A DNA stretch of 52,429 nt, taken from IMG/VR virus record IMGVR_UViG_3300037140_000067, positions 1-52,429 of that record. One strand, 5' to 3'. Source of the stretch: a virus. Taxonomy: Duplodnaviria; Caudoviricetes. The position numbers and the translations under genes were made by a program. Below the pieces are notes generated by a model. The model saw only the letters and a list, made by a program, of their open reading frames with translations, was not told the DNA's origin and ran no database searches. Shown in pieces: positions 836 to 52,429 of this stretch; position 1 is the stretch's first letter, and every line of letters begins with the position of its first letter.

Positions 836-1575
836 GGCTACGCCTCCTGAGCGTTTGCGGTGGTTATCATGCTGTCGAGTTGCGTCTTGATTGCGGTCCA
901 GTCGTGACCCTTGCTCTCGCAGAACTTCATCTGCTCATCCGGCGTCCAATCGAGCATGGCAAAAGCTGCCTTGACATCCTGGGGCATGAGCGGGGTTTTG
1001 AACCAGTCGAGGATGGCGCTGTACTTCCTGGCGGGGATGAGGCTGCCGGGCTTTTGTCCGACAAACTCATAGAGTTGCGCGGCCTTACGCTCGGTGCGCT
1101 TCAGTTCTTCCTTGATGTGCGTGGCCTCCTCGTTGGTGATGGGAGTAGCGTCTTCCAGGACTGCTGCGCGAGATGCGGCCTCGGTGCGTTGCTGGGCTCC
1201 AGTAAGGTCTTTGCCGCGTTGCGCCGCGTTCTTGGATACCTGCGCATCTTCGTTCTCTTCCGGGGCGACTCCAGCCAACCCGCACAGTCCTTGCCGCCGT
1301 GCATAGGAGTGTTCCGCGCCGAAGGTTTGCGGATCATTGTTCGGGCCGAGAGGGATGCCGTCATCGTTTGCCCACTGGCCGGACGAGTGGTGCAACTCGG
1401 TTACGAGATACATCCGGCCTTCAACACGACGGATTGGCTGGCGTACGCAGATCTCTTCGGCAGTGAGGCACGGAAGAATCGCCGTCAGAACGTCGGCAAG
1501 ATCGGCGTAGGCATAGTCGTAACTGTATTCCTTGCCGCTGCCCTTAGCTGTCCCTTTGACGGTGGCCTTCCTGGT
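1..1575. repeat. Left copy of imperfect terminal direct repeat (partner 50855-52429)
   Basis: Constant offset of 50854. Identical over 1-127 and 1490-1575, with about 138 substitutions between (hand count). Confidence 0.97.
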
Positions 1576-2069: not shown

Positions 2070-2107
2070 TTGATTGCGCCTCCTGAGCGCGTTTGGATCG
2101 TTGGGTG

Positions 2108-5976: not shown

Positions 5977-6161
5977 TCACAGAAGTCGTAGGAACCAAGC
6001 CCGCCGTCAAGCCCGAAACGCCCGTGAAGCTCAACCGCCACGTCGCGATCGCGCTCACCCACATGAAGCAGGAACGAGACACGCTCGACAAGAAGATCGC
6101 CACCCTCACCGCGGAGCGCGTGAAGGTCCACAAGGCAATTCTGGAGATCGAACCGGAGTAG
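5973..6161 (+). CDS. Short coiled-coil protein (62 aa)
   Basis: ATGA overlap; heptad pattern. Confidence 0.7.
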   Translation: MITEVVGTKPAVKPETPVKLNRHVAIALTHMKQERDTLDKKIATLTAERVKVHKAILEIEPE

Positions 6162-6199
6162 AATTTTCCCGAAAGGAATAGGAAAAGAGCAGAGCACAG

Positions 6200-6228
6200 A
6201 AAAAGGCCGGGGAGGCAAAGCCCCGGCC
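6200..6228 (-). terminator. Rho-independent terminator between convergent units
   Basis: GGCCGGGG/CCCCGGCC stem followed by a T5 tract on the - strand. Confidence 0.75.
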
Positions 6229-6248
6229 ATATCTGTCTTTGCGACCCT

Positions 6249-6722
6249 CTAGGTCGTTTGGTTGAACGTGATGCCGGTGGGCAGGTTGTTTACAGGAGCG
6301 GACGGCGGGATGGTCGAGCTGACGCTCATGTTGGGGTTGCTGGCGCTGGCTGCGGCGTAGGAGAACGCCAGCGGGGTCGTGGTGCTCTCCACCCACCCTG
6401 CCGGATAGCTTACGCTCACAACCAGGCCAGTCGAGTCCACAGAAGGCGAGACGGCGGGATCGTTCGATACGACGGTGAAGGTTGAGTCGGCGGGGTAGAC
6501 TGCGCCGGCCGGGACGAGAGTTCCGGTAAAGACCTGGGACTGTCCTGCTGCTGTTGAGTTCATGGTGATCTCCGTGAATGTGATTGCGGTTGGGGTGGGG
6601 TGATGCTGTTCGTGGAGCTCGTGCAGAATTTCGCGCTCGGTGCGAAGGATCTCATCTTCGCGGCGAAGGATGGCACCGAGTTCGGGATTGTCGGGATCTG
6701 GGCGGCGCCGTCGGTGGGACAT
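6249..6722 (-). CDS. Ig-like beta-sandwich protein (possible internal start at 6563)
   Basis: S/T/P/V-rich beta-strand C-terminal part; GGAG precedes both Met1 and the internal MNSTAAG. Confidence 0.65.
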   Translation of the reverse strand: MSHRRRRPDPDNPELGAILRREDEILRTEREILHELHEQHHPTPTAITFTEITMNSTAAGQSQVFTGTLVPAGAVYPADSTFTVVSNDPAVSPSVDSTGLVVSVSYPAGWVESTTTPLAFSYAAASASNPNMSVSSTIPPSAPVNNLPTGITFNQTT

Positions 6723-6746
6723 TTCAGAGTCTCCGAATGAATAGTA

Positions 6747-6908
6747 CTACAGGCCAGGAATGAGTTTCAGCACCAGAAGGATGAGCAGGATGAATAGAAT
6801 TAGGCCAACGGCCCCGCCGCCATACTGAATGTGTGGGTTTGGAGTCGCTATGGCGAACGGCCCAGCCCAGCAGAGAAGGATGAGCACGACAAGCAATATC
6901 AGGATCAT
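6747..6908 (-). CDS. DUF3309-like two-TM small membrane protein
   Basis: MILILLVVLILLCWAGP...YGGGAVGLILFILLILLVL; GAGG RBS. Confidence 0.7.
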   Translation of the reverse strand: MILILLVVLILLCWAGPFAIATPNPHIQYGGGAVGLILFILLILLVLKLIPGL

Positions 6909-6970
6909 TGGACGTACCTCGCAGACATCATACGCCCATAAGATGCGATTCGACGCCCTCGCGGAGAGGA

Positions 6971-7003
6971 TGTTTGCGGAGTTGTTTGCGGAGTTGTTTG
7001 CGG
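6971..7003. repeat. 12-bp tandem repeat TGTTTGCGGAGT (~2.8 copies)
   Basis: Read directly from the sequence. Confidence 0.85.
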
Positions 7004-7083
7004 GCGTGGTGCGTGCGCGGGGGAGCCTGCTGTGTGGACACGCTCTTGAGGACTTGCCCCGCGCTGAGAAGCATAGCACACAA

Positions 7084-7166
7084 CAGAAAACCCCTCCGAA
7101 GAGGGGGCTTCTGGATCACGCTTAGGAGGCGGTGTTCGGATGTATCTGCCAGGACTCACTCGAACA
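7084..7166 (-). ncRNA. Candidate trans-acting anti-Shine-Dalgarno sRNA (~80 nt)
   Basis: Own promoter, 5' hairpin GUUCG...CGAAC, central CGCCUCCUAAGCG, then a CCCCUC-UUCG-GAGGGG-UUUU terminator. Confidence 0.6.
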
Positions 7167-7171
7167 TTTAC

Positions 7172-7200
7172 ATCTTGACACATTTAGACGTTTTATGCAA
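7172..7200 (-). promoter_or_regulatory. Promoter of the candidate sRNA
   Basis: TTGCAT-17 bp-CAAGAT with an extended -10 TGn. An overlapping + strand TTGACA lies at 7175. Confidence 0.55.
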
Positions 7201-7554
7201 GCATGAAGTTGCCAGCGATTCACATATGCGGACATTCTCCCGACAATTCGGCTTGAACTCCCCAAAGACTACGTGCGTCTTGGCCGCTGCATTGCGCTCA
7301 ATCGGCTTATACCCGAGAGAGTAACCGGCCCCTTGCGCGCGCTACGCGTGCCCCTGGTCGATAGAGGAGCGTCCTTCTTCGGGAGGCGTGCGTAAGCAAA
7401 TGGGGCTTGTAGCCTGTCAGGGGTCCATACGAGCTAACGGCATACCGTTACTTCCCTGCTGAGAGTAAGTACCCTTGCTTTCAGTCTGTCCACCGAACAC
7501 TGGCATTATCAATTGGTTTTAGTCTTAGTTCTTGCTTCTAAAGGGGTTTATAGG

Positions 7555-7884
7555 ATGGATTACAAGGTGTCTTATGAATGGCCTACATCGAGCATAGCCT
7601 ACGGGAAGGAACACTTCCGCGAGAGCCGCTTGAAGACAAAGTATGGAATGACGGGCGAACAATTCGATCTCCTACTCCAAGATCAGGGCGGAGTTTGTAA
7701 AATATGTGGAAAAACTAATGCCCCAACCAGAATGAATTTGCTCGGAGTCGATCACTGCCACGCCACCGGGAAAATTAGGGGGCTGCTTTGCATAAAGTGC
7801 AATTCAGGACTCGGATTTTTTGAGGATGACATAAACCGCATGAAAGCAGCTATTGAATACCTCCTTTGTTCGCGCACACAATAA
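7555..7884 (+). CDS. Endonuclease VII-family (His-Me) nuclease, probably a free-standing homing endonuclease
   Basis: KYGMT...QGGVCKICG...VDHCHATGKIRGLLCIKCNSGLG. Confidence 0.9.
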   Translation: MDYKVSYEWPTSSIAYGKEHFRESRLKTKYGMTGEQFDLLLQDQGGVCKICGKTNAPTRMNLLGVDHCHATGKIRGLLCIKCNSGLGFFEDDINRMKAAIEYLLCSRTQ

Positions 7885-7921
7885 TTATCAATTCTCCTAA
7901 TTTCGTGTTATTGTAAATCTC

Positions 7922-8149
7922 GTGAAGTCAAAGAAGCCCAGACCGAAGACGTGCCCTCTCTGCCGGAATCGGTACTGCTTGGCAATGGCTCAAGTCCACC
8001 CGGAAGTCGAGATAGCCTACGTGCCCCGGAATGAATGGCCTAAGAGTGTGGTAGAGAAGATGGACGCCGCGCTTGGGCGAACACCCCCCGACCGCATCAC
8101 CCAGGCCCGCAAGCAAGCGGAGGAATTACTTCAGAAGGTGACAACGTGA
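7922..8149 (+). CDS. Hypothetical protein (75 aa)
   Basis: CPLC motif; GTGA overlap with the next gene. Confidence 0.65.
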   Translation: MKSKKPRPKTCPLCRNRYCLAMAQVHPEVEIAYVPRNEWPKSVVEKMDAALGRTPPDRITQARKQAEELLQKVTT

Positions 8150-8391
8150 TCGACGAGGCCACCAGGATTCGGGTTATAAGAGCTATCCTCGGTCTGGAGT
8201 CTCAGGCGTTCGCGGCCAAGATTGGCGTCACTCCCTGCACGATGAGCAACTGGGAGAAGGGCCGATCCACCCCGCAGCGGGCTTTCCGAAAAAAACTATC
8301 AGAGCTTTGCGAAGAACATAAAATTTGCTTTCTGCCAAGCGGATGTCCCGTGCTGCAGGAAGACCTCATGCCCGTTCAGGAGACGACGTAA
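8146..8391 (+). CDS. XRE/Cro-like HTH regulator
   Basis: IRVIRAILGLESQAFAAKIGVTPCTMSNWEKGRSTP. Confidence 0.9.
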   Translation: MIDEATRIRVIRAILGLESQAFAAKIGVTPCTMSNWEKGRSTPQRAFRKKLSELCEEHKICFLPSGCPVLQEDLMPVQETT

Positions 8392-8795
8392 TGGCTGAAA
8401 CTGCAATCAGTGTGCCGTTCGACAGTGGCGAAATCAAGGAAATCGCCGTAGCCGAGTTCAAGAAGAGACTCGACCAGCTTTCACCCCTGAGTGGGGCTAA
8501 GGAGTATGGAGCCTTCGAGATCGACTTCGCTCACACCATCCGGCTGCATCGCACGTCGGGCATTGACACGGTGGACAAGCAGACTCTCGCGTGGGGCCAT
8601 GTCGAGGGCGGAAAGATCGACGACGCTCCGGCTGACGAAGTGGAGAAGATCGTTGCCCTTCACGAGACGTACAAGAGCGACCCGGACGTGAACGGGGAAC
8701 GGCTCAAGCACCAAATGCCGCTCACTGTGGAGTCCCGCGACGGGAAAGGGAACATGGTTCGCAAGCGGGTAAAAGTGGCGGATGATGGGAAGTGA
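8391..8795 (+). CDS. Hypothetical protein (134 aa)
   Basis: AGGAG RBS; TAATG coupling. Confidence 0.8.
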   Translation: MAETAISVPFDSGEIKEIAVAEFKKRLDQLSPLSGAKEYGAFEIDFAHTIRLHRTSGIDTVDKQTLAWGHVEGGKIDDAPADEVEKIVALHETYKSDPDVNGERLKHQMPLTVESRDGKGNMVRKRVKVADDGK

Positions 8796-20507: not shown

Positions 20508-23500
20508 TGAAGCGAATCGCACTATGGCTGTCCCTCTTGATGCTCCCGCTTGCCGCTCACGCGCAGACAGACACCATTCAGGGCGCATGCACGCAGGAAG
20601 GCGTCACGGCTTCTTTGTCGGGCATCCCGTCGACCAACCGGCTTGACGGCATCATCCCCGGCTGTATTGTGACGGTGTACCTCACGGGCACGACGACGAA
20701 GGCGACGATCTACGCAGACGGGTCGCTCACCCCGCTGCTAAACCCATTCACGGCGGACGTGGCTCCGGCGTCGAACTTTCCCGGCAAGTGGATATTCTGG
20801 GCAGCGACGGGCACGGGGTACGATGTGGTGATGAGTGGTGGGGGAGGCAACCCCTCCTGCACGACGGCTCTGCTTTGCTATGCCCATCCGCGGACATTGA
20901 CAGACGTGAAGGTAGGCGGAGGCGGCGGGGGCGGCGGCGTCACTCAGATCGTCGCAGGGGCTAATATAATAATCGCTCCCTCCAACGGTCTTGGAACGGT
21001 GACGATCAGTTCGACAGGTAGCGGCAATCTTCCGGCTGGCACCGGGCTTGTGGGCGTAGCGGGCGGAACGGGTGTGCTGAATAGCGCCGCAAACCCGGCA
21101 CCCACTTTGAATCTATCTGGAGCCGCACCAGCCACAAACGGCGGGCAAATCAGTCAGTCCACCAGTTACTATGGCTGCAACGGCCTCGGGTTCTCTCTCG
21201 GGTACGGTGGGACATCGGCCCAGGGTTGGACAATTTGCAAAACACATGATGACACCTTCAACATATCGCAGCCGGGAATCCATCAAAATCACAGTGTCTT
21301 TATGGATCAGGCGGCAAACGGAGACACCGACATAACCGCCGAATATTTGACAGCTTTCGGCGGAAATACTGCGAATAGCGATGAAGCAGTCATTGGGCAC
21401 CTGATGCACGTTTATCAGCGTGGGTTCGTTTCGGGTCTCGTGACTGGAGGCGCATCCACCGGGTCTTCTATGATCACGGCGGGGACCTTAGCTTGCACCG
21501 GGAAATGCGATGAGTCGTTTAGTGGTGGCCTGTTCTCCCCCGGAGGAATGCTGCTCGATACTCACGCGGCTGGAATAACAGCAACTATTGTAGGCTGCGC
21601 TACCCCTATCTCGAACATTGGATGTGCAGCCAGTGCAACCGGACTGAATGGGATGTACTACGACATTAGCGGAGCGACTGTCACGCCCTCGACCGCATGG
21701 GGCAACATCGTTCCCAGCAGTTGCACAGTTCGCAGCGCCAGCTTATACCAAGTTCTTCAGTCGATGACTTGCACCATCACGCTCGGATCAGGATCAGGAC
21801 ACTTCGCCGCGACGAGCGCCCACATTCAACTGAGCGGGCCTTTTCAGGAAGAGTCAATCGTTACGGCAGTCACCCCTGGAAGCGGCACCGATTCGGTAAC
21901 TTTCACATCGCGGTATGCGTGGGACAACTCCAACGGAAACACGAATGGTGCTTTGGTTATGCAGGGCGGACCCGGAGGACAGGCACTCATTCTAGCCGGT
22001 ACGCAGACTTCGGCCCCGATAGCTTATCAGGTAGTAGGCGCTACTTCATCGACCAGGGTTTACTTCTCGAATTGCGTGGAAGGGCAGTGCAACGGAATTC
22101 AGAGCAGCAATTTTATTACCCCAGAGAACGGAACATTATTCAACAGCGGAACTCTCACGCGGACTACTCATGTAGTTACGCTGAGCGTCACGGGCGGAGG
22201 AGCACAGTCCATATATCTTCTCCCTGCCGGGACAAGTATCGTCGTCAGCGGTGCGGGTGACGCCACATTCGACGGCACGTTTACAGTTGTTAGCAACACA
22301 ATGGATCGTTTCAACCCGGTTATTACTTGGGCGCAGACAGCGACGGACTCGACGACTACGACTTTCAACGCTACCGGAGTCAAGCCACAGATTACCTTTT
22401 ATCCGATGGCGTTCATTACCGGCACGAATAATGGGCTGGTCGGAGTTGCCCAGCTAGGGACCAACTCAGTGCCATTCGCCAACGGAGATTCGGTTGTCAG
22501 CGCCCCAACGTCTCAGTTCCAGTCAAAAGGCTTCGAGGTAAATTCGGGGCAGATGACGCCCAACAGTCCAGGCTACAACTCAAACCAAGTTCAAGTCTTC
22601 GACGCGGGTCCTAGCCCTCCGTTCTCTCAGTACTACGCCTCCAATCCAAGGGCAAACGCACCGGGATATGTAGGGCAGAATATGTTTTACTCCAATGGGG
22701 CGTATGCGAACTTTTTCAATTTCAACTTCCGTCCTGCCAACAATGGGGCTTTGATCAACGTAATCGGCAACGATCCAGTGTCGGGAGCTTCGAACATCCC
22801 GTACTACCTTTTCCAAGATCAACTTGCGTCCGCGATGGGAATTATCGTAAGTCCTGCCAGTTTGACTTTTGGGATCAACGGAAATCTTAGTGTTAGCGGA
22901 ACTTGCACGGGATGCTCCTCGGTGAGCGGTTCCGATGGCGAACTTCTGTGGCGCAGTGGGGCGGCAGCTACCGGGATCACAGGCTCGAACACGAATGGCA
23001 CAGACACGATTACTATCCCGTATTTCCATGTGACGGGCGGAGATGGATTACTCGTGCAAAGCGCCTCCTCAAATTGGACGAACATGATATTTAACAACAC
23101 GACGGCGGGCGGTAAGAATTGGCAAATAGGCTCTGGCGGGTCGGGCGGGACGCCAACGACTACGGGAACATTTGCGATTGAAGACAATACGGATGGCACG
23201 TTGATACAAGTATGGGGAAGCAATTATTCAATATTCAACTTTCCGGTAACTGCCCCACAGATAAGCATCATAGGAAACGTGACAACCAGCACTCCAGCGC
23301 AGCTTTCTATGACTGCTCTTTCTGGGCATCCACCTGTGCCTGCGGCTGGCAGTGCTGTCTATGGAGTCGATACATCAGGGAACGCGGAAGTTTCGGAGAA
23401 CGGAGCGGCGGTCTCGCTCTTATGCACGGTGGCGAACGGGCGGTGCCCGGGCAGTCCATCCGTTGGAACCGCTGGTCAGATGCAGAAGGTAGGAGCGACT

Positions 23501-50492: not shown

Positions 50493-50655
50493 ATAATCCT
50501 TTCTCCTTGTTGGCCGTATAGCGACGGCGTTTGGCTTCCTCTGCCGCGATGCGCTTGAACTCGGGAGTCTCAACCCGCATCAGCGGCACAATGAAGCGAT
50601 TGAACGATTCGAGACTGCAACACTCGACGATAAGCTGCCTCCAGACGTGTTCCAT
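50473..50655 (-). CDS. Hypothetical protein (60 aa)
   Basis: TGATG coupling to the upstream gene. Confidence 0.6.
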   Translation of the reverse strand: MEHVWRQLIVECCSLESFNRFIVPLMRVETPEFKRIAAEEAKRRRYTANKEKGLYELANR

Positions 50656-51689
50656 CAGTAGATGATCTTCGTGTGTGGGATCTTGCCCTGGGCGATGGCC
50701 ACGACGAGCTTCTTTGCATTAGCATCGGAGATGCCCAATGCAACGACGGCTGCTATCGCCACCCGGTAAATCTCAGTCTTGTGTGCGGTGCTGTCCTCTC
50801 TGGCTTTGGTAGCGGCATCCTCCGCCGCCTTCGCGTCCGCTGTCCGCTTCTGCTCGGCTGCCACGGCGCGTTCCGCTGCATCCTTGGCATCCTGCTCGGC
50901 TTTGACTGCGCGAGCCTCGGCTGCCTCGGTGTCGCGTTTGGCCTTCGCCTCGCGCTCTGCGGTATCCCGCTCGGCCTTCTCGGTCGCTTCGCGTGCTACC
51001 CGCTCGTCGCGTTCGGCCTGCTCCTTTGCCTGGCGATCCTTAGCCTCTTTGGACTCGCGGACGATGCGTTCGGCCTCCAGTTTTTTGAAGGCAACCTGCT
51101 GCTCCTCGTGATTCTTTGTCTCTGCAAGAATTTTGCTGAGACGCATGGAGGACGCATCGTTCGACGTGCCAAATCGTTCGGCAAACTCTTCCCAATTGCG
51201 TAGCGCAAACTCGTCGAGCTTGGCAATGCGGCTCTCGATCTCCGCGACAGTGGCCCCGAAAGGTACGTTGCTGAGTTCGATAACATCTTTCAACGCCTGT
51301 TCGTGAGCCTCAACGCGGGCCTTGACTGCTTCCTCGTAGTCCGTGAGGGGCTTGCGGGCTTGATCGCGTAGAGCGGTAAGCGCTTCCTTCATCCGCTTGC
51401 GCTCGGCGTCGATGTCCGTCGCCTTGCGCTTGATGTCCATGCTGAGATTCTTCCCGTAGTCCTCCAGCCGTGCCATCGAACTGGAAACCTTGCGGGCAAG
51501 AGAAGCAATCGCCTTGCGTCCCTTTTCGCAAGAGATGTCGGGCTGAAACTGCTCCACCTCTTTGCGGATCAGGCTGATGATTTTGTCAAGGCCGTTCGGA
51601 ACGAACAGTTCCGACGCCTTCTCTTCTGGGGGAATGATTTCCCCGATGGGTGTTCCAACGATGATTTCGTCTTCGATTATGCCGTTCAT
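50655..51689 (-). CDS. Phage coiled-coil protein, allele B (344 aa)
   Basis: AGGAGG RBS; KGRKAIASLARKV...RKPLTDYE, E/A/K/R-rich stalk, AIAQGKIPHTKIIY end. Confidence 0.9.
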   Translation of the reverse strand: MNGIIEDEIIVGTPIGEIIPPEEKASELFVPNGLDKIISLIRKEVEQFQPDISCEKGRKAIASLARKVSSSMARLEDYGKNLSMDIKRKATDIDAERKRMKEALTALRDQARKPLTDYEEAVKARVEAHEQALKDVIELSNVPFGATVAEIESRIAKLDEFALRNWEEFAERFGTSNDASSMRLSKILAETKNHEEQQVAFKKLEAERIVRESKEAKDRQAKEQAERDERVAREATEKAERDTAEREAKAKRDTEAAEARAVKAEQDAKDAAERAVAAEQKRTADAKAAEDAATKAREDSTAHKTEIYRVAIAAVVALGISDANAKKLVVAIAQGKIPHTKIIY

Positions 51690-52429
51690 GGCTACGCCTC
51701 CTGAGCGTTTGCGGTGGTTATCATGCTGTCGAGTTGCGTCTTGATTGCGGTCCAGTCGTGGCCCTTGCTCTCGCAGAACTTCATCTGCTCGTCGGGTGTC
51801 CAGTCGAGCATGGCAAAAGCTGCCTTGACATCTTGGGGCATGAGCGGGGCTTTGAACCAATCGAGGATGGCGCTGTACTTCCGGGCGGGGATGAGGCTGC
51901 CGGCCTTTTGTCCGACAAACTCATAGAGTTGCGCGGCCTTACGCTCGGTGCGCTTCAGTTCTTCCTTGATGTGCGCGGCCTCCTCGTTAGTGATGGGGGT
52001 AGCGTCTTCCAGGACTGCGGCGCGAGATGCGGCCTCAGTGCGTTGCTGGGCTCCAGTAAGGTCTTTGCCGCGTTGTGCTGCGTTCTTGGATACCTGGGCA
52101 TCCTCGTTCTCTTCTGGCGCAACACCAGCCAACCCGCACAGTCCTTGCCGACGCGCATACGAGTGTTCCGCGCCGAATGTCTGGGGATCATTGTTCGGAC
52201 CGAGTGGGATGCCGTCATCGTTTGCCCACTGGCCGGACGAGTGGTGCAGTTCGGTTACGAGATACATCCGGCCTTCAACACGACGGATTGGTTGGCGTAC
52301 GCAGATCTCTTCGGCAGTGAGGCACGGAAGAATGGCGGTTAGCACGTCGGCAAGATCGGCGTAGGCATAGTCGTAACTGTATTCCTTGCCGCTGCCCTTA
52401 GCTGTCCCTTTGACGGTGGCCTTCCTGGT
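50855..52429. repeat. Right copy of imperfect terminal direct repeat (partner 1-1575)
   Basis: Constant offset of 50854 from the left copy. Confidence 0.97.
51692..52429 (-). CDS. erf: ERF-family protein, allele B (5' part off the window edge)
   Basis: Nearly the same protein as 838-1659; differences are mostly synonymous. Confidence 0.88.
   Translation of the reverse strand, partial: TRKATVKGTAKGSGKEYSYDYAYADLADVLTAILPCLTAEEICVRQPIRRVEGRMYLVTELHHSSGQWANDDGIPLGPNNDPQTFGAEHSYARRQGLCGLAGVAPEENEDAQVSKNAAQRGKDLTGAQQRTEAASRAAVLEDATPITNEEAAHIKEELKRTERKAAQLYEFVGQKAGSLIPARKYSAILDWFKAPLMPQDVKAAFAMLDWTPDEQMKFCESKGHDWTAIKTQLDSMITTANAQEA

What the first reader, a model, noticed from the sequence alone, without database searches (positions are those of the whole stretch)
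7084..7200. Candidate phage sRNA complementary to the RBS of two genes in the ERF recombination operon
Seen on the - strand: promoter (TTGCAT-17-CAAGAT with TGn), 5' hairpin, ACCGCCUCCUAAGCGUG, then a UUCG-loop terminator. The 13-mer CGCUCAGGAGGCG occurs identically at the RBS of gene 2069 (2077-2089) and gene 835 (841-853; unchanged at 51695-51707). The sRNA pairs with it at 12 of 13 positions, extendable by 1-2 nt. Both sRNA seed and targets can fold with the anti-SD/SD in a loop closed by CGC/GCG, suiting a kissing interaction. Inference: a trans-encoded translational repressor located 5-6 kb from its targets, tuning the leftward operon.
Basis: partly seen in the sequence, partly recalled or inferred. 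Interest (0 to 1): 0.8.

Follow-up and report, generated by a model that had tools for sequence, protein, structure and literature searches.

The report
Conserved phage anti-RBS small RNA
This peat phage and its relatives carry a small non-coding RNA gene whose exposed stretch mirrors an unusual hairpin-shaped ribosome-binding site on a few of the phage's own early genes, so it probably turns their translation down, although nobody has yet seen the RNA.

Summary
On the - strand at 7084-7200 there is a promoter, a 5' hairpin, an open CGCCUCCUAAGCG stretch and a UUCG-loop terminator. Its near-complement sits at the RBS of genes 2069 and 835 (and 51689).

The RNA gene is real. Five related lineages keep the same promoter, hairpin, CCUC(C) linker and a terminator of different sequence. 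Nine lineages keep a promoter plus hairpin at this spot. Rfam has no match.

Within the window, the target claim is only marginal. The two RBSs rank first and joint second of 233 candidates, but shuffled-flank P is about 0.1.

Comparison strengthens it. The extended RBS GCU(U/C)AGGAGGC occurs only in phages with this seed, always on the leftward strand: 10 of 96 versus 0 of 407 sites. The genes that carry it are unrelated, and each RBS folds into a small hairpin. Two relatives carry a second seed-plus-terminator copy in a 3' UTR.

No transcript evidence was obtained.

By-product: the adjacent 280-nt 'intergenic' region is a new large structured RNA, with 26 covarying pairs. It is transcribed divergently from an overlapping promoter.

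The scan has noted similar anti-SD phage sRNAs on other DNA.

The parts
7172..7200 (-). Promoter of the small RNA: -35 TTGCAT (7200-7195), 17-nt spacer, extended -10 TGtCAAGAT (7180-7172)
   Evidence: Read. The hexamers and spacing are identical in 5 lineages. They vary but fit the consensus (TTGnnn, 16-18 nt, (T/C)AnnnT) in 10 of 10 loci from 9 lineages.
7084..7166 (-). Small RNA of about 80 nt: 5' hairpin 7166-7133, open linker, terminator
   Evidence: Folds. Homologues fold the same way. There is no Rfam family.
7119..7131 (-). Seed CGCCUCCUAAGCG (anti-SD core CCUCC). The shared core in relatives is GCCUCCUAAGC.
7084..7106 (-). Intrinsic terminator CCCCUC-UUCG-GAGGGG plus UUUUCUG
   Evidence: The five close lineages have five different G+C-rich stems, each followed by a U-run, at the same place.
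2075..2092 (-). Predicted target 1: hairpin RBS GCGCU-CAGGA-GGCGC of the 118-aa gene 1713-2069
   Evidence: (rank 1, -26.6 kcal/mol)
839..856 (-). Predicted target 2: hairpin RBS ACGCU-CAGGA-GGCGU of gene 2-835. The full copy is 50655-51689, with its RBS at 51693-51710.
   Evidence: (-24.7 kcal/mol, joint rank 2). The protein matches phrog_1376, of unknown function.
51693..51710 (-). The same RBS in the 91%-identical end repeat (second haplotype); not independent
6747..6908 (-). 53-aa two-helix hydrophobic peptide just downstream of the terminator (RBS GAGGUAC)
   Evidence: Analogous peptides of different sequence follow the small RNA in L033 and G001. No family match.
6249..6722 (-). 157-aa protein with a conserved C-terminal domain; the operon ends at terminator 6228-6205
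   Evidence: 178 homologues, alignment A1, terminator
7210..7490 (+). Large conserved structured RNA (leader of the rightward operon), transcribed divergently from the small RNA
   Evidence: 80 pairs, 26 with compensatory changes, 94% of cells paired, 0 of 500 shuffles as good, and invariant G.U pairs on the + strand.
7175..7204 (+). Putative + strand promoter TTGACA (7175-7180), 18 nt, TGcAAGCAT (7196-7204). It occupies the same DNA as the small-RNA promoter.
   Evidence: Read. Kept in the five close lineages as the reverse complement of the conserved blocks. Function is inferred only.

Best explanation
A stand-alone gene on the - strand makes an RNA of about 80 nt. It has a 5' hairpin, an open linker carrying GCCUCCUAAGC, and an intrinsic terminator.

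Proposed mechanism: the linker pairs in trans with a special class of ribosome-binding site, (N)GCU(U/C)AGGAGGC(N). This site is itself a small hairpin with the SD in its loop and 3' arm. It heads a few genes of the leftward early (replication and recombination) operon; here these are genes 2069 and 835, on either side of ERF. Pairing of 12-14 bp covers the whole SD and so blocks 30S binding. It may also expose the mRNA to RNase.

Readthrough of the terminator probably also feeds the two genes downstream.

Shown: the sequence features, their conservation, the complementarity, and the co-occurrence of seed and RBS class.
Inferred: transcription, pairing in vivo, repression, and timing.
For: 1. 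The gene is conserved.
- Five lineages (window, L033, L057 type, L059 type, G001) keep the promoter exactly, a 5' hairpin, a CCUC(C) linker and a terminator.
- L033 changes the apical stem and L059 the whole hairpin in a compensatory way. The terminator stems all differ.
- All 10 loci from 9 lineages keep a consensus-fitting promoter followed by a hairpin at this position.
- The protein genes around it are largely different.

2. The seed behaves as the selected unit. G001 and L059 carry a second seed-plus-terminator copy on the same strand at the 3' end of the downstream operon. In L059 the primary linker has diverged.

3. Targets in the window. Among 120 GGAGG sites the two RBSs give the longest pairing, 15 and 14 against a next best of 11. 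Among 233 candidate initiation regions they rank 1 and joint 2.

4. Co-occurrence of seed and RBS class.
- The exact 11-mer GCTTAGGAGGC occurs 6 times in 126 kb of seed-bearing phages: 3 are the seeds' own antisense and 3 are - strand RBSs. It occurs 0 times in 682 kb of 49 related loci without the small RNA.
- 10 of 96 GGAGG-plus-start sites carry the extended flank in bearing phages, against 0 of 407 in the others (the pattern was defined after seeing the data).
- Complete genomes G005 and G007 share the neighbouring large RNA but lack the CCUCC seed. They have 0 of 23 and 0 of 28 such sites.
- G001 has five such - strand sites.

5. Duplex energies are -18.5 to -29.1 kcal/mol.

6. The target RBSs form hairpins whose outer pairs differ yet stay complementary.
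Against: - No transcript evidence. Of two metatranscriptome runs laid, one had a single contig at 6256-6424 and the other had nothing.
- Inside single genomes the pairing is not clearly better than for shuffled-flank seeds: window P = 0.16 and 0.10 and 0.09 and 0.10; L061 0.15, L058 0.14, L059 0.79.
- In G001 the significant top hit (P = 0.009) turned out to be the second seed copy, not a target. Its best real sites score 13 against a null mean of 13.9.
- The two window sites share 13 nt, and the two L059 sites share 16 nt, so they may be duplicates rather than independent events.
- Seed flanks do not covary with target flanks in G001 or L059.
- The GCUU/AGGC flanks are explained in part by the RBS's own hairpin, which could exist without any small RNA.
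- Bearing phages are related, so co-occurrence could partly reflect common descent.
- The host is unknown, so host targets could not be scanned.
Confidence: 0.55

Rival explanations
1. The small RNA is real, but its physiological targets are elsewhere: host mRNAs, or any strong SD. The match to the two ERF-flanking RBSs is what any CCUCC-bearing G+C-rich stretch would find.
For: Shuffled-flank nulls give P of about 0.1 to 0.16 in the window. The target genes are absent from G001, G002 and G003 while the seed is kept. The more distant lineages L073, L074 and L076 have a small RNA at the same place without CCUCC.
Against: The extended RBS class occurs only in seed-bearing phages, and only on the leftward strand. 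The seed is duplicated in two relatives.
Confidence: 0.22
2. The element is mainly a cis-acting leader and attenuator. The promoter at 7200 serves the 2-helix peptide and the 157-aa gene, and the terminator merely limits their expression.
For: Co-directional genes follow directly in the window, L033, G001 and L059. No other promoter-like site was found on the - strand between 6908 and 7084.
Against: In the L057 type the next gene lies on the opposite strand. No alternative antiterminator fold appears in the minimum-energy or centroid structures. This reading does not explain why the open linker is conserved and duplicated. It is compatible with the best explanation as a second output.
Confidence: 0.13
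3. A type I toxin-antitoxin pair: the hydrophobic peptide is the toxin and the small RNA is its antitoxin.
For: A 2-helix hydrophobic peptide of 47-57 aa follows the small RNA in 3 of the 5 close lineages. The best, sub-threshold, Rfam hit is istR (15.9 bits against a cut-off of 45, E = 1.3).
Against: There is no complementarity of 9 nt or more between the small RNA and 6747-7083; only the 5-6 bp SD/anti-SD match exists. The peptide is absent in the L057 and L059 types. The peptides have no family match.
Confidence: 0.05
4. The + strand is the expressed one: AGGAGG at 7124 drives a 12-aa mini-ORF (MYLPGLTRTFTS), and the - strand RNA is an illusion.
For: On the + strand, an SD plus ATG at 8-10 nt spacing is present in the window, G001 (MHLPGLTRTSTS), L057 and L059.
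Against: L033 has no start codon within 22 nt of the SD. ORF lengths are 12, 12, 18 and 40 codons. Differences fall at unpaired RNA positions or are compensatory in the hairpin. The U-tract and promoter fit the - strand in 10 of 10 loci. On the + strand the site lies just after a hairpin, antisense to - strand genes.
Confidence: 0.03

Closest known systems
c4 antisense RNA of phages P1 and P7 (immI region)
   Same: A phage-encoded RNA of about 80 nt whose open loop sequences pair with the ribosome-binding region of a phage mRNA and block translation. It can act in trans. (Passages of the review PMC12197685 read.)
   Different: c4 is cut out of the leader of the operon it controls and uses two loops (recalled, not from a call). 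Here there is an independent promoter and terminator, one seed (sometimes a second copy in a 3' UTR), several predicted targets 5-6 kb away, and no match to any Rfam model.
DicF RNA of the Qin prophage
   Same: A short prophage RNA with a terminator-like 3' end that pairs in trans with an RBS (ftsZ) and blocks translation (PMC12197685 passages).
   Different: DicF is processed from an operon transcript and targets a host gene. No Rfam hit here. The predicted targets here are the phage's own genes.
sar RNA of phage P22 and OOP RNA of lambda (recalled, not from a call)
   Same: Small phage RNAs that repress phage genes by pairing.
   Different: These are cis-encoded, fully complementary antisense RNAs. 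The present RNA is trans-encoded, with 11-14 nt of imperfect pairing.
C-rich-seed sRNAs of Firmicutes such as RsaE/RoxS
   Same: An unpaired C-rich motif that pairs with G-rich SD sequences of several mRNAs.
   Different: Those are chromosomal, with UCCC motifs, usually repeated in loops. There is no sequence or Rfam relation.
T4 RegB endoribonuclease (recalled; a functional analogue only)
   Same: A phage device that inactivates a subset of early mRNAs through their GGAG Shine-Dalgarno sequence.
   Different: RegB is a protein nuclease, not an RNA.

Membership tests
Trans-encoded base-pairing sRNA that occludes an RBS | Own promoter | tested here: met
   TTGCAT-17-TGtCAAGAT. Identical in 5 lineages and consensus-fitting in 10 of 10 loci. 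It did not reach the generic scan's threshold.
Trans-encoded base-pairing sRNA that occludes an RBS | Rho-independent terminator ending a short transcript | tested here: met
   7106-7091 plus a U-run. Kept with different stems in all 5 close lineages.
Trans-encoded base-pairing sRNA that occludes an RBS | Conserved unpaired seed | tested here: met
   The linker is open in the minimum-energy folds. The GCCUCC(G)UA(A)GC core is kept in the window, G001 (twice), L033, L057 and the L059 3' UTR copy.
Trans-encoded base-pairing sRNA that occludes an RBS | Complementarity to translation initiation regions encoded elsewhere | tested here: met
   window; relatives. Significance inside one genome is marginal.
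Trans-encoded base-pairing sRNA that occludes an RBS | Transcript of the predicted size exists | tested here: inconclusive
   Only assembled contigs of two metatranscriptomes could be laid, and none covers 7084-7200. Contigs cannot show absence.
Trans-encoded base-pairing sRNA that occludes an RBS | Represses target translation | not testable with these tools
   Needs reporter fusions.
c4 antisense RNA family (Rfam C4) | Match to the family covariance model | tested here: not met
   No hit at the gathering score in the whole window, nor at E up to 10 in 6900-7560.
c4 antisense RNA family (Rfam C4) | Lies in the leader of the operon it controls | tested here: not met
   It is a separate unit, 5-6 kb from the predicted targets.
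Type I toxin-antitoxin (istR/tisB-like) | Extended complementarity of the sRNA to the toxin mRNA | tested here: not met
   No match of 9 nt or more in 6747-7083. The istR model scores 15.9 bits against a cut-off of 45.
Type I toxin-antitoxin (istR/tisB-like) | Small hydrophobic peptide next to the sRNA | tested here: inconclusive
   Present in 3 of the 5 close lineages and absent in the L057 and L059 types.
Transcription attenuator / riboswitch-like leader | Alternative antiterminator fold and constant downstream genes | tested here: not met
   No alternative fold. The downstream gene is on the other strand in the L057 type.

The most novel reading that the evidence does not exclude
The small RNA, the neighbouring large structured RNA of about 280 nt (15 helices) and their two overlapping, oppositely oriented promoters form one RNA-based early/late switch, conserved in peat and lake phages.

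RNA polymerase can sit on only one of the two promoters at a time. One choice makes the anti-RBS RNA, which silences a dedicated hairpin-RBS regulon in the early operon. The other choice makes a new class of large cis-acting leader (riboswitch-, ribozyme- or antiterminator-like) that gates the packaging and structural genes.

Lineage-specific seeds with matching RBS classes would then act like immunity specificities.
Probability: 0.2. Interest if true: 0.85.

Novelty: new member of a known kind. Interest (0 to 1): 0.62.

Why it matters
Few phage small RNAs are known to control the phage's own genes in trans; c4 of P1 and P7 is the classic case. This one would be a new family, not in Rfam, from uncultured peat and lake phages.

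It comes with a recognisable, testable target class: a hairpin RBS that occurs only where the seed occurs. That gives a simple rule for predicting RNA-controlled early genes from sequence alone.

The scan has noted similar anti-SD small RNAs in many other phages (these are AI notes, not evidence). Translational shut-off of early genes by an RNA copy of the ribosome's anti-SD may therefore be a common phage strategy.

The adjacent large structured RNA is a separate, well-supported new RNA motif.

Tried and rejected
- **Phage database.** Near and distant BLAST of 6000-8500 and 6200-7520 against the phage collection found nothing.
- **Seed as a search pattern.** An exact 18-mer of the seed in viral contigs gave 5 hits. 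All were chance matches inside a coding sequence.
- **157-aa protein.** The search for related loci with the single protein found nothing. With alignment A1 it gave 50 loci, but only L033 has the small RNA upstream, by BLAST and by a promoter-plus-loop descriptor.
- **Large-RNA pattern in other collections.** In genome contigs it gave 2 hits, both chance matches in coding DNA, so no host or prophage was identified. In metagenome contigs it gave 6 hits: 5 true copies of lineages already known and 1 chance match.
- **Long antisense targets.** The longest Watson-Crick matches to the whole small RNA are 11-mers, which is at chance level.
- **Other candidate targets, all rejected.**
  - The conserved GGGAGGCG block in the + strand leader. 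It is paired inside the large RNA and does not covary with the seed.
  - The RBS of the conserved HTH gene. It has no SD in L061 or L060.
  - The RBS of the hydrophobic peptide. It gives only 5-6 bp.
- **Whole-genome duplex scan.** A scan with a 26-nt seed is dominated by G+C-rich, non-RBS sites; site 2104 ranks about 21st. This is why later tests were restricted to initiation regions.
- **Sequencing runs.** 20 of the 22 runs listed hold part of the stretch. One of those is on record as RNA, and a second RNA run was listed only for sharing a study. The RNA contig laid covers 6256-6424 only, and the other RNA run has nothing. This is no evidence about the small RNA either way.
- **Alignment of the small RNAs.** MAFFT alignments (A3, A5, A6, A9) were too poor beyond the basal stem for a formal pair count or a covariance model. 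None was built, and structure conservation rests on the single folds.
- **G004 (L075 type).** The complement of its seed occurs only at the small RNA itself. The contig ends about 1 kb beyond it, so the prediction is untested.
- **Target proteins.** Pfam and PHROGs gave no function for them.
- **Supplementary files of papers.** None were consulted.

Full report
**Setting**

The window is a whole IMG/VR virus record of 52,429 nt with 58.6% G+C. Its ends, 1-1575 and 50855-52429, are 91% identical. It therefore most likely represents a circular genome of about 50.85 kb, assembled across two haplotypes.

- The - strand genes from about 4460 down through 1, continuing as 51860 to 42605, form a leftward operon. 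It holds ERF (phrog_2324), helicase/methylase and primase-like genes.
- The + strand genes from 7513 to about 42300 are endonuclease VII, a small Xre-type HTH protein, and the packaging and virion genes.
- The finding lies at the junction, on the - strand.
- DNA runs from peat and permafrost metagenomes hold the stretch.

**The observation**

- Promoter: TTGCAT (7200-7195), 17 nt, TGtCAAGAT (7180-7172).
- Hairpin: 7166-7133.
- Open stretch: ACACCGCCUCCUAAGCGUG.
- Terminator: CCCCUC-UUCG-GAGGGG (7106-7091), then UUUUCUG.
- The 83-nt RNA folds at -29.8 kcal/mol (z = -2.33) with the seed open.
- The 13-mer CGCUCAGGAGGCG lies on the - strand at 2089-2077, 853-841 and 51707-51695, and nowhere else. 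Each copy is followed by an ATG.
- Pairing with the seed is 8 bp, one C.A mismatch, then 5-6 bp: -26.6 and -24.7 kcal/mol.

**Is it a gene?**

Generic scans do not prove it. The terminator scan found 12 sites against 11.4 expected, and the promoter is below the scan's threshold. Rfam has nothing at gathering score in the whole window, and only sub-threshold hits that lean on the terminator (istR 15.9 bits against 45). The case rests on comparison with relatives.

- DNA pattern searches found four further lineages: L033/L058; the L057 type with four near-identical copies; L059/L060; and L068, which is G001, a complete 47,071-nt phage with terminal repeats.
- All keep the promoter hexamers and spacing exactly.
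- All keep a 5' hairpin. The basal GUUCG/CGAAC stem is constant in four. The apical stem is replaced in L033 and the whole hairpin in L059. The loop UGGCAGAU is kept in four.
- All keep an open linker with CCUC(C), and a G+C-rich terminator of unrelated sequence followed by a U-run.
- Fold z-scores run from -1.6 to -3.75.
- A wider search through the neighbouring conserved region added five more distant lineages. In all 10 loci a promoter that fits TTGnnn, 16-18 nt, (T/C)AnnnT is followed at once by a stable hairpin on this strand. Only L072 and L075 among these keep CCUCC.
- The protein genes around the module differ greatly. G001 shares only nine blastx segments with the window. The non-coding module is thus among the best-conserved parts of these genomes.
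- In the L057 type the next gene lies on the other strand, so the unit does not depend on the genes downstream of it.

**The + strand mini-ORF rival**

The mini-ORF is 12 codons here and in G001, 18 in L057 and 40 in L059. L033 has no start codon at a usable distance. The differences between lineages sit at unpaired or compensatory positions of the RNA hairpin.

**The seed is the selected part**

G001 and L059 carry a second copy of the seed, followed by its own terminator hairpin, on the same strand at the 3' end of the downstream operon.

- G001: ACACGCCUCCUAAGCACAG.
- L059: ACACCGCCUCCUAAAGCACAG.

In L059 the linker of the promoter-proximal RNA has drifted to CGACCUCAAAACGC, while the 3' UTR copy keeps the seed.

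**The targets, inside the window**

- Of 120 GGAGG sites, the RBSs of 2069 and 835 give the longest pairing with one mismatch allowed: 15 and 14, against a next best of 11.
- Of 233 SD-bearing candidate initiation regions they rank 1 and joint 2 by duplex energy.
- Seeds with shuffled flanks do as well fairly often: P = 0.16 and 0.10 (2000 shuffles), and 0.09 and 0.10 (100 shuffles).
- The two sites share 13 nt, so they may be one event.
- An unrestricted genome scan is dominated by G+C-rich non-RBS sites.

On this window alone the target claim is only suggestive.

**The targets, in relatives**

- Neither target protein has a homologue in G001 (100% complete), G002 or G003, yet the seed is kept. 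The ERF module as such is therefore not the conserved partner.
- What is conserved is a class of RBS. The exact complement of the shared seed core, GCUUAGGAGGC, heads two leftward genes in L059 (at 4531 and 3602, with an ATG 8-9 nt on) and one in G001 (5979).
- G001 has four further variants on the same strand: GCUUUAGGAGGC, GCUCUAGGAGGC, GCUAGGAGGC and GCUUACGGAGGC.
- The window has GCUCAGGAGGC twice.
- In 682 kb of 49 related loci without the small RNA, the exact 11-mer is absent. The six one-substitution matches there mostly break the SD core.
- Among GGAGG sites with a start codon downstream, 10 of 96 in bearing phages have the extended flank. Three of these are the seeds' own antisense. 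The figure is 0 of 407 in the others. This pattern was written after seeing the data.
- G005 and G007 are complete genomes that share the neighbouring large RNA but whose small RNA lacks CCUCC. They have 0 of 23 and 0 of 28.
- The proteins behind these RBSs are unrelated to one another and have no known function.
- Every such RBS folds as a small hairpin: GCGCU-CAGGA-GGCGC, ACGCU-CAGGA-GGCGU, GAGCUU-AGG-AGGCUC and UAUCGCUU-AGG-AGGCGAUA. The outer pairs differ but stay complementary.

Two cautions follow.

- The GCUU flank is partly explained by this intramolecular stem.
- The bearing phages are related to each other.

Flank-by-flank covariation between seed and target was not seen in G001 or L059.

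**Mechanism proposed**

The RNA is made from its own promoter and ends at the terminator. Its open linker meets the loop of the RBS hairpin and zips into a duplex of 12-14 bp (-18.5 to -29.1 kcal/mol). The duplex covers the whole SD and prevents initiation on a handful of leftward-operon genes. Readthrough of the terminator probably supplies the hydrophobic peptide gene and the 157-aa gene, because no other promoter-like site was found there. Transcription, pairing in vivo, the sign of the effect and its timing are all inferred.

**Expression**

Of the 22 runs listed, 20 hold part of the stretch. One holder is on record as RNA, and a second RNA run was listed only because it shares a study. 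Laid contigs of the two metatranscriptomes gave a single contig, at 6256-6424. This says nothing about the small RNA.

**Known relatives by mechanism**

The closest is c4 of P1 and P7. DicF, sar and OOP, and the C-rich-seed sRNAs of Firmicutes share parts of the logic. I read passages of the review PMC12197685. Other papers I saw only as listings. The statements on sar, OOP, RsaE/RoxS, RegB and on c4 processing are recalled. The RNA is not a member of any Rfam family. I file it as a new member of the known kind 'trans-acting, RBS-occluding sRNA'.

Earlier notes of this scan describe similar anti-SD small RNAs in other phages. I did not test those.

**By-product: a large structured RNA**

The 'intergenic' 7210-7490 region is a large structured RNA.

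- Five lineages, + strand: consensus energy -74.1 kcal/mol, 80 pairs, 26 with changes on both sides.
- The same five lineages read on the - strand: -62.9 kcal/mol, 73 pairs, 19.
- Controls: 94% of cells are paired; 0 of 500 shuffles reach the observed values; slid controls give at most 6 covarying pairs.
- Ten sequences from nine lineages keep the core helices, with invariant G.U pairs that fit the + strand only.
- A + strand promoter-like site, TTGACA (7175-7180), 18 nt, TGcAAGCAT (7196-7204), lies on the same DNA as the small-RNA promoter. The -35 of each overlaps the -10 of the other. It would start transcription at the first helix. This is inference only.
- Rfam has no match.

Noticed in passing
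window 7210-7490 (+): A large conserved structured RNA between the small-RNA promoter and the first rightward gene. It has 15 helices and 80 pairs, 26 of them with compensatory changes in 5 lineages (0 of 500 shuffles as good). The core is confirmed in 10 sequences, and invariant G.U pairs fit the + strand. No Rfam match. It looks like a new leader or ncRNA motif of peat and lake phages.
   Followed up: partly
window 7172-7204 (both strands): Two promoter-like sites on opposite strands share the same 33 bp, with the -35 of each overlapping the -10 of the other. Binding of RNA polymerase to one should exclude the other. The arrangement is conserved in the five close lineages.
   Followed up: partly
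L069 (G001) about 8300-8375 (-); L059 about 7575-7665 (-): A second copy of the seed followed by its own terminator hairpin, at the 3' end of the operon downstream of the small RNA. It could be a 3'-UTR-derived small RNA.
   Followed up: partly
window 6971-7003: An exact 12-nt tandem repeat, 2.8 copies (TGTTTGCGGAGT on the + strand), between the terminator and the hydrophobic-peptide gene. It is absent from L033 and G001.
   Followed up: no
window 6747-6908 (-); L033 526-667 (+); L069 8714-8887 (-): Small two-helix hydrophobic peptides (53, 47 and 57 aa) of unrelated sequence sit right after the small-RNA terminator in three lineages, all with a GAGGUA RBS. No family match.
   Followed up: partly
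window 6249-6722 (-): A 157-aa protein with a variable coiled-coil N-terminus and a strongly conserved C-terminal domain of about 105 aa. It has 178 homologues in metagenomes and no Pfam or PHROG family. One metatranscriptome contig covers 6256-6424.
   Followed up: partly
L082 (G005) about 21912-22722, compared with G007: Two phages that are 96-100% identical over most of their length (one segment 91%) differ by a segment of about 810 nt next to the large RNA. The segment carries an extra promoter-plus-hairpin small-RNA-like unit. It looks like a variable, immunity-like module.
   Followed up: no
window 7513-8149 (+): An endonuclease VII gene and a 75-aa ORF lie between the large RNA and the conserved Xre-type HTH gene. 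In L061 and L060 the HTH gene follows more directly, which suggests a mobile insertion here.
   Followed up: no
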